Counted from the stretch's first letter, positions 23,693 to 26,214 are shown. The stretch: 26,386 nt of DNA from Candidatus Hydrogenedentota bacterium (GCA_029974275.1 JARKSN010000128.1:1-26386); one strand, 5' to 3'. Numbers and translations are program-made. Notes: generated by a model not told the origin, from the sequence alone.

Positions 23693-24532
23693 TCATGCGC
23701 CGACGACTTCGTCGAGGTCCTGGAGCAGCGCACGCATCTCGTTGACCCGTTCTGTCTGGCCGATTCGTTCGTAGGCATGAATCAGATTCTGCAGGACGCG
23801 CGAGACGATCATGACGGCGTTGGCCGGTTCGGCGAGAAGGTGCAGGTGATTGGGCGCGAGCGTGGCCCGGAGTTGGGCCATCTCGCGCGATGACAGTATC
23901 CGGCCTCCGTTGAAACAATCGAACAGCACATCGCGCCCGGCGACATGCGCCCGCGCCAGAAAATGGCCCGGCACGTTGCATCCCGTGATGTTCAGCCCCG
24001 ACCGGCGCCCGATGAGGATGAAAATCGCCGCCAGCGTGATGGGCAGGCCCAGCCCCGTTTCCATCACGTGGATCAGGTTGTTGTTCATCGGATCGTGGTA
24101 ATCATCCACATTGCCGCGCAGCCGTTTGCTGATGAACAGAAACCGGCTCAACGACACCGGTTCCATCGGCCTCCCGGAACCGTAGAACTCTTCCGACAGA
24201 TTGTTGAGCATTTCGCAAAGGCGGATCGGCGTTTTCCAGCCGTGTTGGAAATCAGACAACAGTTGGAACGCCGTCTCCAGCTTTTCCGATTCGTCCTCGA
24301 ACAACGGCCATTGCCGCCACAAGCGGCGATCGCTTTCCTCGGCCCGGCGCCGCGACAAGAGCGAATGTAGCGCCGCCCGCTGCTTCAAGCTCAGCCGTTT
24401 TTCCCACTCGGGCATGCTGACCAGCAGATCCGGCCCCAGCGCGATTAACTCCCGCTCGACATGCTCGCGCACCACCGGCGAATCGTCATCCAATAATTGC
24501 AGCAGATAGGGCAACTGTTCATGTTTCGACAT
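23693..24532 (-). CDS. SirB1-like / transglutaminase-like core protein
   Basis: Contains LL.LLDDDS..V at the N-terminus, GNVDDYHDP.N, GLPITL, PGHFL, DCFNGG and RVLQNL..AY. Confidence 0.82.
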   Translation of the reverse strand: MSKHEQLPYLLQLLDDDSPVVREHVERELIALGPDLLVSMPEWEKRLSLKQRAALHSLLSRRRAEESDRRLWRQWPLFEDESEKLETAFQLLSDFQHGWKTPIRLCEMLNNLSEEFYGSGRPMEPVSLSRFLFISKRLRGNVDDYHDPMNNNLIHVMETGLGLPITLAAIFILIGRRSGLNITGCNVPGHFLARAHVAGRDVLFDCFNGGRILSSREMAQLRATLAPNHLHLLAEPANAVMIVSRVLQNLIHAYERIGQTERVNEMRALLQDLDEVVGA

Positions 24533-24566
24533 ATTGCAACACCATTCCCGCGCCATTTCCGCAAGC

Positions 24567-24575
24567 AGTATACCA
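24567..24575 (-). promoter_or_regulatory. Extended -10 element (TGgTATACT) upstream of the SirB1-like gene
   Basis: The minus strand reads CATGGTATACTG ~35 nt upstream of ATG 24532. The form is the same as at 3673-3681. Confidence 0.45.
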
Positions 24576-24727
24576 TGAACGGCCTGGGCGTTTTCGAAGG
24601 CGTCGGCGGCCCCAGGCCGTCGCGTCGACGCAGGCGTTCCATCCGCAGCAGCGGACGCCCAAGCGCTCCGTCCGCTCGACGCGTTGGCCAGGGGAGCGGA
24701 ACGCTTGGGCGCCATGAATGGGCTACG

Positions 24728-25639
24728 TCATGGATGCGTATGGGCCATGTGGCTCAGTTCATGCACGATCATGCCGCCTCGGTTCACCGGAAATGGATTG
24801 CCAAATTCGCCGAGATACCGCAAAAATTCGACGTGTCCGTCCATGAACAAAACATTGCAGCCTCCGGGAACGTGATTGAAATGGCTCGCTTCGTCGTCCG
24901 AAATTTCATCCCACATGATCGCGAGTTGCGACTGGGCCTGGCTGCTGGCGGCGGGATTGTTGATGTCGGTGATGAGAAAACGCTCGATTCCTTCCTTGAG
25001 GCGATAGATGATTCCGCCGCCGCCGTTTCCGGTTCCGGGCGAGACCGGCCAATCGGCGTTGACGGCCTCAACCGCTCCCTCGGGCGTGTCGCTCAGCCGC
25101 TCATGGAGGTCTTCGATGCTGGTCTCGAAAAGGGCGGCCTTCGCTTCGTCATTCGCCATGCCGTTCTCGATTGCCCATCCCAGGTACACGTAGGGGTGTT
25201 CGTACACCTCGCACGGCTCGACCTTGCCGTTGCCTTTCGTGGGCCACGTAATCGCGCCGTCATCGTCCCAGAGCGTCGACGCCGTATATCCCGCGTCCCA
25301 CAGTTCGACCGCCGTCGAGGCTGAAGGGTTGCTCGGGCAAACGAGCGCATTGAGATCGCTCAGATATTCGGGAAAAACCTTCTCCGCGTCGAACATGGTT
25401 GCGCCTCCGGCGGCGTCGCCGTTGCAATTGAGCGATTTCATCGGGGGGAACATGTCCCGGTTCTCGCCGGAGTACATCTTGAACACGAGTCCCATTTGCT
25501 TGAGGTTGTTGGCGCAGCTTGCCCGGCGCGCCGCTTCGCGGGCGCGGGCCAGCGCAGGCAGCAGGATGGCCGCCAGAATTCCGATGATGGCGATGACGAC
25601 GAGCAGTTCGATGAGCGTAAAGCCTTGTGGGCGTTTCAT
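24728..25639 (-). CDS. DUF1559-family protein with prepilin-type N-terminal cleavage/methylation motif and C-terminal H-X9-DG motif
   Basis: Begins [48 protein letters not shown] and contains [19 protein letters not shown]. The RBS is GAGGGA. It ends [11 protein letters not shown]. Confidence 0.92.
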
Positions 25640-25773
25640 GTCTTGATTCCCTCACGAATTTGGCCGTGTTGCATGCCAGAAACGCGCCGCTTCCTGTATC
25701 CGCCGCGACTCACGAAGCCGGCCAGCGAAGGAAGGCGTCTTTCTGTGCACATGAAATAGAGATCGGTTGTTCG

Positions 25774-26109
25774 TCAGGCGAGAACGAAAGGAGGGCCGCG
25801 TCGACCGGCAGGAGGCCACAATTTCTGAACCGCCGCGATGGAGGCGAAAGCCGTGCGTCGGCGTTCGACAACGGAAAACGCGGCATAGACAAAACACGCC
25901 GCCGCAAGCAGCGAATCGCCGGCAAGCAAGACGCACAACGCGCAGAGAGGGGGGCCGGAGGCAGGTTCATGATCGTGTCCGCAGGGAATGGCCATGTGGG
26001 CCAATGCGGCCACATATAGAGCCAGCAGACACGCGCCCGTCCATCGCGCGACGTTTCGCCGCGTTGCGCCGCGTCGCGTGTTGCGTATGGGGTCATTCCA
26101 AGAATTCAT
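25774..26109 (-). CDS. Small DUF2946/CruR/CutF-like leader protein with CxxC and terminal RGPP
   Basis: 111 aa: Arg-rich N-terminus, hydrophobic WTGACLLALYVAALA, HMAIPCGHDHE, LCALC, and RRGPP four residues before the stop. It lies just downstream of a good promoter. The RBS is weak and the start is uncertain (ATG 26109 or GTG 26112). Confidence 0.7.
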   Translation of the reverse strand: MNSWNDPIRNTRRGATRRNVARWTGACLLALYVAALAHMAIPCGHDHEPASGPPLCALCVLLAGDSLLAAACFVYAAFSVVERRRTAFASIAAVQKLWPPAGRRGPPFVLA

Positions 26110-26185
26110 CACGCACGACCATTGTCACAAGACGAAAGACAACGAATGCAACAAAACGCCTCACTCATCCCGCCCAGTTTGATTT

Positions 26186-26214
26186 AGAATAGAGAAGCGT
26201 TGTTTTTTTGTCAA
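26186..26214 (-). promoter_or_regulatory. Sigma70-type promoter driving the leader ORF and the DUF1559 gene
   Basis: The minus strand has TTGACA (26214-26209), a 17-nt spacer and TATTCT (26191-26186). Confidence 0.72.

What the first reader, a model, noticed from the sequence alone, without database searches (positions are those of the whole stretch)
24728..26214. Candidate metal-sensing ribosome-stalling leader (CxxC + RGPP) controlling a His-tailed DUF1559 prepilin-like gene
Seen in sequence: a TTGACA-17-TATTCT promoter, then a 111-aa ORF with a hydrophobic segment, H-x4-C-G-H-D-H, CALC and RGPP (25800-25789) near its end, then a 134-nt spacer and a DUF1559 gene. Established: a signal/TM segment + CxxC + C-terminal R(A/G)PP is the layout of DUF2946 leaders such as Bordetella CruR and Rhodobacter CutF, which regulate downstream copper genes post-transcriptionally. 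RAPP-type motifs are ribosome arrest motifs (ApdA, ApdP). Inference: this is such a regulatory uORF, but its target is a prepilin-type DUF1559 protein rather than a TonB receptor, copper chaperone or oxidase. I know of no description of this pairing. It would give a functional clue (metal handling) for a large uncharacterised family.
Basis: partly seen in the sequence, partly recalled or inferred. Interest (0 to 1): 0.82.

Follow-up and report, generated by a model that had tools for sequence, protein, structure and literature searches.

The report
Stalling leader before pilin-like gene
A small membrane-peptide gene with histidines, a CxxC motif and the ribosome-stalling ending RGPP sits in front of a pilin-like gene of unknown function; it is a distant relative of known copper-sensing leader peptides, and a real but already catalogued example of that kind of switch.

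Summary
The 111/112-aa ORF (25774-26112, minus strand) has two hydrophobic segments, H-x4-C-G-H-D-H, CALC, and RGPP four residues before the stop. A 134-nt spacer and a DUF1559/H-X9-DG prepilin gene follow.

It is not a chance ORF. A profile of the peptide finds it in 87 of 135 genomes of the phylum (Hydrogenedentota by relatives' names). In 119 copies, R-x-P-P lies within 15 residues of the stop in 117. CxxC lies 42-45 residues before it in 101, matching the 45 +/- 2 ruler of DUF2946/CruR. dN/dS is below 0.5 in 37 of 37 close pairs. A DUF1559 gene follows in 101 of 119. Other copies head efflux, ABC, catalase or hemA genes.

The window's peptide is below Pfam's DUF2946 cut-off (16.7 vs 23.7 bits), but 25 of 30 relatives hit that family.

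Best reading: a CruR/CutF-type nascent-chain sensor, probably of a metal, controlling the pilin-like gene in cis. Stalling, ligand and direction are inferred.

The pairing is not new. A 2025 survey lists DUF1559 among genes enriched downstream of RAPP uORFs in its source data. This scan has also noted it on other DNA.

The parts
26186..26214 (-). sigma-70-like promoter TTGACA-17-TATTCT
   Evidence: 10 of 12 matches. Similar sites lie upstream of 27 of 83 related leaders and in 0 of 83 control stretches.
25774..26112 (-). leader ORF, 112 aa from GTG (111 aa from ATG at 26109), stop included
   Evidence: Conserved in 87 of 135 genomes of the phylum. dN/dS below 0.5 in 37 of 37 close pairs of relatives.
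25987..26040 (-). first hydrophobic segment (about residues 25-42) after an Arg-rich N-terminus; likely signal anchor
   Evidence: Kyte-Doolittle 15-residue mean up to 2.19. A like segment is present in 97 of 115 relatives scored. No dedicated signal predictor was run.
25969..25998 (-). His/Cys cluster H39-x4-C44-G-H46-D-H48
   Evidence: H39 is invariant and H46 is at least 90% conserved in 30 leaders.
25933..25944 (-). CALC (C57-x-x-C60), at the start of the second hydrophobic segment
   Evidence: Invariant in 30 of 30 leaders. A CxxC 42-45 residues before R-x-P-P occurs in 101 of 119 copies.
25888..25950 (-). second hydrophobic segment (about residues 55-75)
   Evidence: KD mean about 2.0. 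A like segment is present in 92 of 115 relatives scored.
25789..25800 (-). RGPP, candidate ribosome-arrest motif, 44 residues after CALC and 4 residues before the stop
   Evidence: R105, P107 and P108 are invariant. R-x-P-P lies within 15 aa of the stop in 117 of 119 copies. RAPP and RGPP are shown arrest motifs in other proteins (PMC12992588, passages read).
25640..25773 (-). 134-nt spacer with a long hairpin (about 25673-25750) and a GAGGGAA Shine-Dalgarno at 25647-25653
   Evidence: The fold is not more stable than shuffles (z 0.81). The SD is not clearly sequestered.
24728..25639 (-). DUF1559 / H-X9-DG prepilin-type gene, 303 aa, stop included
   Evidence: Its relatives sit downstream of 101 of 119 leaders. 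blastp from this protein hits 85 of 85 distinct complete partners, the window's own among them, at 150 bits or more.
24731..24763 (-). C-terminal [11 protein letters not shown]: an HExxH motif plus a His-rich tail
   Evidence: HExxH occurs in the last 32 aa of 54 of 87 complete partners. It is absent from the other prepilin-type paralogs of this genome.

Best explanation
The small ORF is a cis-acting regulatory leader of the DUF2946 (CruR/CutF) kind. While it is translated, its N-terminal hydrophobic segment engages the membrane. The ribosome then pauses at Arg-Gly-Pro-Pro, four codons before the stop. At that moment the CxxC, fixed 44 residues upstream, has just left the exit tunnel. Together with the conserved histidines, it is placed to bind a ligand, most likely a thiophilic transition metal (Cu or Zn class). 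Ligand binding changes how long the ribosome stays parked. The parked ribosome then sets expression of the DUF1559 pilin-like gene 134 nt downstream, in one of two ways: it keeps Rho off the C-rich spacer (the CruR way), or it keeps the start region open (the CutF way). The controlled protein is one subfamily of DUF1559 with a C-terminal HExxH/His-rich tail, so it is plausibly an envelope metal-binding protein. Shown here: the anatomy, its conservation, the ruler, purifying selection, and the conserved pairing. Inferred: arrest, the ligand, the sign of the response, and the role of the DUF1559 protein.
For: Family resemblance. The window's peptide gives DUF2946 as its best Pfam hit: residues 35-108 align to profile positions 42-117 of 117, running to the profile's end. 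Of 30 relatives, 25 hit DUF2946 at E up to 1 and 9 at E up to 5e-4, where it is the only family hit. Relative P0008 carries a precomputed PF11162 label.

Defining features from Roy et al. 2022 (PMC9426467, passages read). These are CXXC, RAPP three residues before the end, 45 intervening residues conserved to 1-2, an export signal, first position in the operon, and a long spacer (162 nt). Here the spacing is 44. Among the 101 copies with both motifs it is 42 (2), 43 (28), 44 (59) or 45 (12). The motif lies 1-9 residues from the stop in 116 of 119 copies. The sequence between the motifs is not conserved.

Conservation. The leader is found in 87 of 135 genomes of the phylum. dN/dS has a median of 0.195 and is below 0.5 in 37 of 37 pairs.

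Pairing. 101 of 119 copies precede a prepilin/DUF1559 gene, with a median spacer of 116 nt. Genes beyond the DUF1559 gene are not conserved in 8 loci examined. This genome has 13 DUF1559 hits and only one leader. In a control set of 78 prepilin loci fetched without regard to leaders, 2 have such a leader.

Link to metals. Leaders of the same family and ruler head OEP (2), Cation_efflux (1) and ABC (2) genes in the same phylum. Partner tails carry HExxH in 53 of 80 cases with a CxxC leader, against 1 of 7 with a CxxC-less leader.

Arrest motif. RAPP and RGPP are the strongest arrest motifs, and CruR arrest was shown in vitro (PMC12992588, passages read).

Rho and EF-P genes are both present in this genome.
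Against: The window's own peptide is below Pfam's gathering score (16.7 vs 23.7 bits, E 0.012). Single-sequence searches found almost nothing: none, and 5 at E up to 0.001 among 1.84 billion representatives.

No stalling, metal binding or regulation was measured.

The spacer shows no convincing regulatory structure. Its fold is no better than shuffles (z 0.81), and the SD is not clearly sequestered or released by a parked ribosome (paired probability 0.60 vs 0.50).

The target has no known link to metals. Its model was poor (pLDDT 64).

The CxxC/His-tail co-variation rests on few independent lineages.

Fifteen relatives lack the CxxC yet keep RGPP, so the sensor need not be a metal site.
Confidence: 0.72

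Rival explanations
1. The leader is an arrest peptide that reports thiol-redox state, oxidative folding or export capacity of the envelope, not a metal. The nascent CxxC would be oxidised or engaged by the export or Dsb machinery, and this would release the pause.
For: The partner protein has four nearly invariant cysteines (C42, C72, C101, C143) and needs export by the prepilin route. RAPP/RGPP leaders upstream of DsbA and thioredoxin-like genes and of sec genes are reported (PMC12992588, passages read). One relative heads a catalase gene.
Against: The invariant His residues beside the CxxC, the efflux-type targets OEP and Cation_efflux in the same leader family and the His-rich tails of the partners fit a metal better. 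With 44 residues between the CxxC and the arrest site, the CxxC is unlikely to have reached the periplasm when the ribosome pauses (inference from tunnel length).
Confidence: 0.13
2. The small ORF encodes a stable two-helix membrane protein that works together with the pilin-like protein, for example as a metal-binding partner or assembly factor. On this reading the R-x-P-P ending is structural and not regulatory.
For: Two hydrophobic segments are present. The peptide is under purifying selection. It is strictly adjacent to one DUF1559 subfamily.
Against: The 43-44 residues between the CxxC and R-x-P-P keep their length but not their sequence. This is expected of a ruler in the exit tunnel, not of a folded protein. 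The same leader type heads unrelated genes: hemA, OEP, CDF, ABC and catalase. Tandem leader-leader-gene arrangements occur. RAPP-like motifs are otherwise avoided in proteomes (PMC12992588, abstract and passages).
Confidence: 0.1
3. It is a chance ORF in G+C-rich DNA, and its motifs are coincidental.
For: Many spurious long ORFs overlap real genes in this window. No close homologue was found in a word-indexed protein search.
Against: There are 119 related copies with invariant H, C, C, R, P, P and a fixed ruler, and dN/dS is well below 1.
Confidence: 0.01

Closest known systems
CruR (Bp2923) of Bordetella pertussis, prototype of Pfam DUF2946 (Roy et al. 2022, PMC9426467; arrest shown in vitro in PMC12992588)
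   Same: A small first gene with an N-terminal export or anchor segment. CXXC is followed at a fixed distance (45 there, 44 here) by R-A/G-P-P a few residues before the stop. The spacer before the regulated gene is long (162 nt there, 134 nt here). A Rho gene is present in this genome.
   Different: The target is a DUF1559 prepilin-type protein, not a TonB-dependent transporter/PepSY_TM pair. The motif is RGPP, not RAPP. The phylum is Hydrogenedentota, not Proteobacteria. The Pfam score is below the cut-off. An invariant His pair lies upstream of the CxxC. Nothing has been tested experimentally.
CutF of Rhodobacter capsulatus and 'CutF-like' proteins (Ozturk et al. 2023, PMC9973294; preprint 10.1101/2025.02.05.636593)
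   Same: A leader under 150 aa with a Cys motif and a Pro-Pro motif within 15 residues of the end, followed by a same-strand gene. The proposed logic is the same: the nascent chain senses a metal and a parked ribosome changes expression downstream.
   Different: CutF has CxxxC about 70 residues before a PPP motif and senses copper in the periplasm. It needs EF-P and acts through a stem-loop that shields the SD. No such stem-loop is evident here, and the ruler here is the CruR one.
RAPP/RGPP uORFs upstream of 'DUF1559 domain-containing protein' in the survey of Fujiwara et al., EMBO J 2025 (PMC12992588, source data of Fig. 4B)
   Same: The same pairing. The one listed example that I read has CLIC, 43 residues, then RAPP two residues before the end.
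   Different: It is listed only as an enriched annotation class (112 vs 68) and is not discussed in the main text. The RGPP tables were not in the part of the file held, so I could not check whether this locus or its class is listed there.
Sec/YidC-monitoring arrest peptides with RAPP-like motifs (ApdA, ApdP, SecM)
   Same: A C-terminal R-A/G-P-P type arrest motif in an exported leader upstream of the regulated gene.
   Different: Those leaders monitor the export machinery that the downstream gene encodes, and they carry no conserved CxxC/His cluster. Here the downstream gene is not sec or yidC.

Membership tests
DUF2946 / CruR-type leader | Match to Pfam PF11162 above the gathering score | tested here: inconclusive
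   Window peptide: 16.7 bits against a 23.7 cut-off, E 0.012, aligned to the profile's end. Relatives: 25 of 30 at E up to 1 and 9 of 30 at E up to 5e-4. P0008 is labelled PF11162.
DUF2946 / CruR-type leader | Conserved CXXC | tested here: met
   C57ALC60. Invariant in 30 of 30 leaders. Present at the ruler distance in 101 of 119 copies.
DUF2946 / CruR-type leader | R-A-P-P-like motif a few residues before the C-terminus | tested here: met
   RGPP lies 4 residues before the stop. R-x-P-P lies within 15 residues of the stop in 117 of 119 copies: RGPP 67, RAPP 37, RSPP 7, RDPP 5, RPPP 1.
DUF2946 / CruR-type leader | About 45 residues (+/- 1-2) between CXXC and RAPP | tested here: met
   44 here. 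The range is 42-45 in all 101 copies with both motifs. The family value is taken from PMC9426467.
DUF2946 / CruR-type leader | Export signal or N-in/C-out first transmembrane segment | tested here: met
   An Arg-rich N-terminus is followed by an 18-residue hydrophobic segment, by hydropathy only. No SignalP or TMHMM-type tool was available.
DUF2946 / CruR-type leader | First gene on the strand, with a long spacer before the regulated gene | tested here: met
   A promoter-like site lies upstream. The spacer is 134 nt here and has a median of 116 nt in relatives.
DUF2946 / CruR-type leader | Downstream genes belong to copper or metal homeostasis | tested here: not met
   The target is DUF1559, of unknown function. 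Related leaders in the phylum do head OEP and Cation_efflux genes.
DUF2946 / CruR-type leader | Translation arrest at the motif and a response to copper | not testable with these tools
   This needs toeprinting or PURE translation and reporter assays.
CutF-like leaders | A stem-loop in the spacer that shields the SD and is opened by the stalled ribosome | tested here: inconclusive
   Window: the SD is not sequestered in the minimum-energy fold, and its paired probability is 0.60 free vs 0.50 with a parked ribosome. Family: mean unpaired SD probability is 0.38 vs 0.48, with no proper control.
Sec/YidC-monitoring arrest peptides | The downstream gene encodes a Sec or YidC component | tested here: not met
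   The downstream gene is a DUF1559 prepilin-type gene.
DUF1559 / H-X9-DG prepilin-type proteins (the regulated gene) | Prepilin N-terminal methylation motif plus DUF1559 and the H-X9-DG C-terminal domain | tested here: met
   PF07963 at E 6.4e-10 and PF07596 at E 2.7e-13. TIGR04294 at 30 bits against a cut-off of 19.

The most novel reading that the evidence does not exclude
The leader-associated DUF1559 proteins, which carry a C-terminal HExxH and His-rich tail, are metal-handling pilin-like envelope proteins switched by a nascent-chain metal sensor. This would give the first functional assignment for a branch of the very large DUF1559 family. In Hydrogenedentota the same leader scaffold has been rewired to many outputs: efflux pumps, catalase and, in a CxxC-less form, hemA. 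In a sizeable share of loci the arrest codons themselves (CCU-CCN, spelling CCUCC) act as the anti-Shine-Dalgarno that the parked ribosome hides.
Probability: 0.3. Interest if true: 0.7.

Novelty: new member of a known kind. Interest (0 to 1): 0.48.

Why it matters
DUF1559/H-X9-DG prepilin-like proteins form one of the largest uncharacterised families in Planctomycetota, Verrucomicrobiota and related phyla. This genome alone has 13 hits.

A sensor-type leader attached to one subfamily offers a cheap experimental handle: find what relieves or strengthens the pause, and you learn when the cell wants this protein.

The locus also extends CruR-type control to an uncultured phylum. The fixed 42-45-residue ruler holds over about a hundred very divergent sequences, which supports sensing at the mouth of the ribosome tunnel.

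The leaders are mostly missing from protein databases, so motif surveys built on annotated proteins undercount them.

Tried and rejected
Searches for relatives of the single peptide. The word-indexed protein search found nothing. The exhaustive representative search gave only 5 hits, of which 2 are small proteins of the same layout. Profiles over six-frame genomes were needed.

Structure of the DUF1559 partner. AlphaFold2 on a 27-row alignment gave mean pLDDT 64.4 and pTM 0.61. Foldseek against the PDB gave no match at E up to 0.001; only the N-terminal helix resembles type IV pilins. No metal site can be read from this model.

Spacer RNA. The fold is no better than shuffles. There is no intrinsic terminator in the spacer; the terminator-like sites reported lie inside the leader ORF. 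The SD-exposure test across 95 loci rose from 0.38 to 0.48, but it lacked a proper control, so I do not count it. C exceeds G in the first 80 nt of 71 of 95 spacers. That is compatible with a Rho site, but the leader coding region is C-rich too.

Expression. No RNA holder is listed. Laying a run labelled metatranscriptomic, but flagged as probably DNA, gave only short low-depth contigs inside the DUF1559 gene and none on the leader. This tells nothing either way.

Operon partners. The genes after the DUF1559 gene differ between loci: Transglut_core2/HEAT here, and ABC, ankyrin or a Peptidase_S41-RNase PH-Ham1-Sua5 block elsewhere. I do not include them in the unit.

Scan of genome contigs with the partner alignment. 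It used the generic prepilin N-terminus as its pattern and covered 1 of 64 parts of the collection. It served only as a control set, not as a census across phyla.

Profile-profile comparison with bona fide DUF2946 sequences. This was not run, because the only such sequences I saw were in a paper's supplement.

Full report
**What is there.** On the minus strand, a sigma-70-like site (TTGACA-17-TATTCT, 26214-26186, 10 of 12 matches) precedes an ORF at 26112-25774. The ORF is 112 aa from GTG, or 111 aa from the ATG one codon later. The peptide starts with an Arg-rich stretch. It then has a hydrophobic segment (about residues 25-42), the cluster H39-x4-C44-G-H46-D-H48, and C57ALC60 at the start of a second hydrophobic segment (about 55-75). 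After a non-descript stretch it ends R105GPP108-FVLA-stop. A 134-nt spacer follows. The next gene (25639-24728, 303 aa) carries the prepilin N-terminal methylation motif, DUF1559 (Pfam SBP_bac_10) and the H-X9-DG domain, and ends [11 protein letters not shown].

**It is a real, conserved gene.** Searches with the single peptide found almost nothing, because such small ORFs are rarely annotated. Six-frame searches of genomes did find it.
- With a 7-sequence profile, 67 of 133 genomes of the order matched.
- With a 30-sequence profile, 87 of 135 genomes of the phylum matched at E up to 1e-4. The phylum is Hydrogenedentota by the names that sources give the nearest relatives.
- I fetched every match row except three that lie at contig ends. 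This gave 115 loci holding 119 leader-like segments.
- In the 30-leader alignment, the invariant residues are H39, C57, C60, R105, P107 and P108.
- R-x-P-P lies within 15 residues of the stop in 117 of 119 copies: RGPP 67, RAPP 37, RSPP 7, RDPP 5, RPPP 1.
- A CxxC lies 42, 43, 44 or 45 residues before it in 2, 28, 59 and 12 copies. Eighteen copies have no CxxC at that place.
- The residues between the two motifs keep their number but not their identity.
- For 37 pairs of leaders at least 55% identical, dN/dS was 0.05-0.40 (median 0.195), and none reached 0.5.

**The pairing.**
- A prepilin-type gene starts within 900 nt downstream in 99 of 119 copies. In two more it overlaps the leader frame. 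The median spacer is 116 nt.
- blastp from the window's DUF1559 protein hits all 85 distinct complete partners, the window's own among them, at 150 bits or more. Of these, 77 (again including its own) score above its best paralog in the same genome (182 bits). The partners are therefore largely one subfamily.
- This genome has 13 DUF1559 hits but a single leader.
- Genes after the partner differ between loci. The conserved unit is leader plus DUF1559 gene.
- As a control, I used 78 prepilin/DUF1559-type loci fetched across phyla without regard to leaders. Only 2 carry an upstream R-x-P-P leader. One of these is from a Planctomycetaceae record and has CSVC, 43 residues, then RGPP. Six Hydrogenedentota-titled paralog loci at 44-46% identity have none.
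- A sigma-70-like promoter pattern lies upstream of 27 of 83 leaders and of 0 of 83 control stretches.

**What it resembles.** Roy et al. 2022 (PMC9426467; passages and section 10 read) define DUF2946/CruR by these features:
- an export signal;
- CXXC;
- RAPP three residues before the end;
- first position in the operon;
- a long spacer (162 nt in Bordetella).

In their model the ribosome arrests at RAPP. Copper bound by the nascent CXXC relieves the arrest, and Rho then terminates before the transporter gene. The locus here meets every sequence-level feature, including the ruler (44). By score it is only a distant relative: 16.7 bits against a cut-off of 23.7 for the window's peptide. Of 30 relatives, 25 hit DUF2946 at E up to 1 and 9 at E up to 5e-4. 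One relative is labelled PF11162 in the protein collection.

CutF of Rhodobacter (PMC9973294 and preprint 10.1101/2025.02.05.636593; passages read) works the other way round. Copper strengthens the stall, which melts an SD-shielding stem-loop. CutF also has a longer distance between its Cys motif and its Pro motif.

Fujiwara et al. 2025 (PMC12992588; passages read) show that RAPP and RGPP are the most robust arrest motifs. They also show that CruR arrests in vitro with the two Pro codons in the P and A sites.

**Mechanism proposed, and what is not settled.** With 44 residues between the CxxC and the arrest site, the CxxC has just emerged from the exit tunnel when the ribosome reaches RGPP. This is an inference from tunnel length. 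It fits Roy et al.'s finding that CruR does not need export.

Which step the parked ribosome controls is open. The window's spacer holds a long hairpin (about 25673-25750), but its fold is no better than shuffles (z 0.81). The GAGGGAA SD is neither clearly sequestered nor clearly released. Across the family, the first 80 nt of the spacer have more C than G in 71 of 95 loci. The genome has both rho and efp. Rho-dependent attenuation and control of initiation therefore both remain possible.

One family-level hint favours initiation control in part of the loci.
- The arrest codons spell CCUCC in 45 of 117 leaders.
- With one leader per 45%-identity cluster, CCU is used at the first Pro in 26 of 69 cases, against 92 of 505 other Pro codons in the same leaders (Fisher p 4e-4).
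- This window of the mRNA is predicted to pair with the partner's SD region better than other leader windows do (-8.1 vs -5.8 kcal/mol).
- The window's own locus does not show this pairing.
- Any Pro-Pro pair is C-rich, so I record this as an idea, not a result.

**Why a metal, and which way.** The ligand set (two conserved His, CxxC) and the kinship to CruR point to a thiophilic metal. In the same phylum, leaders of the same family and ruler head two OEP genes, a Cation_efflux gene and two ABC ATPase genes. Efflux genes make sense only if the metal switches them on. If all copies work alike, the DUF1559 gene would also be metal-induced. This is an inference.

The partner proteins end in HExxH in 54 of 87 complete cases and have at least two His in the last 15 residues in 68 of 87. 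HExxH occurs in 53 of 80 partners behind a CxxC leader, but in 1 of 7 behind a CxxC-less leader. The seven come from few lineages, so this is only a hint.

A redox or export sensor remains a fair rival, because the partner has four conserved cysteines and one relative heads a catalase gene.

**Novelty.**
- Roy et al. mention 'a few' DUF2946 proteins in Planctomycetes, but no DUF1559 in the text or in the 3 supplements held.
- Ozturk et al. 2023 do not mention DUF1559 in the text or in the 3 small supplement files held. Their File S1 list was not held.
- A full-text search for 'DUF1559' returns 4 papers, none on regulation judging by their titles and abstracts in the search listing.
- However, the Fig. 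4B source data of Fujiwara et al. 2025 list 'DUF1559 domain-containing protein' among 30 product classes enriched downstream of RAPP uORFs: 112 vs 68, 6.46-fold, adjusted p 1.05e-31. The main text does not discuss it. The RGPP tables lie beyond the stored part of that file.
- Earlier notes of this scan describe the same pairing on other genomes. They led me to the survey, which I then checked myself.

The finding is therefore a well-supported new member of a known kind. It is catalogued but unstudied, and it still offers a first handle on DUF1559.

Noticed in passing
L093, L105, L106, L107, L108, L110, L111, L113, L118 (related genomes): A sub-branch of the leader family lacks the CxxC: GPFR(I/V)L(L/I)F sits in its place. 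It keeps the same 44-residue distance to a terminal LLRGPP. In these 9 loci it sits directly upstream of glutamyl-tRNA reductase (hemA; GlutR_N plus Shikimate_DH). This may be an arrest-peptide control of tetrapyrrole synthesis. 'Glutamyl-tRNA reductase' does not occur in the held part of the 2025 survey's Fig. 4 data.
   Followed up: partly
L072, L078, L084, L068, L096, L086 (related genomes): Leaders of the same family and ruler head other genes: outer-membrane efflux proteins (OEP), a Cation_efflux plus Band_7 protein, ABC ATPases and a catalase. The scaffold is therefore reused for several outputs within one phylum.
   Followed up: partly
L012, L077, L088, L140, L142 (related genomes): Tandem arrangements occur, with two leaders in a row before one DUF1559 gene, or two leader-DUF1559 pairs in a row.
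   Followed up: no
L098, L109, L132, L141, L145, L151 (related genomes): Six leaders lack RAPP, RGPP or RSPP near the end. L098, L141, L145 and L151 end in RDPP and L132 in RPPP; one search counts RDPP 5 and RPPP 1 in all. Motif searches restricted to RAPP and RGPP would miss these.
   Followed up: no
family-wide; window 25789-25800: The first Pro codon of the arrest motif is CCU about twice as often as other Pro codons in the same leaders, so the motif often spells the anti-Shine-Dalgarno CCUCC. The window has CCU CCU, but no predicted pairing with its own SD.
   Followed up: partly
window 23693-24715 (-): The gene that starts 12 nt after the DUF1559 stop encodes a Transglut_core2 protein with a HEAT-like N-terminal part. 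It is not found after the partner gene in 8 other loci.
   Followed up: partly
L190 (Planctomycetaceae record): A His-rich ORF with CSVC, 43 residues, RGPP and 2 residues before the stop ends about 280 nt upstream of a prepilin-type gene. The same unit with the same ruler therefore exists outside Hydrogenedentota.
   Followed up: no
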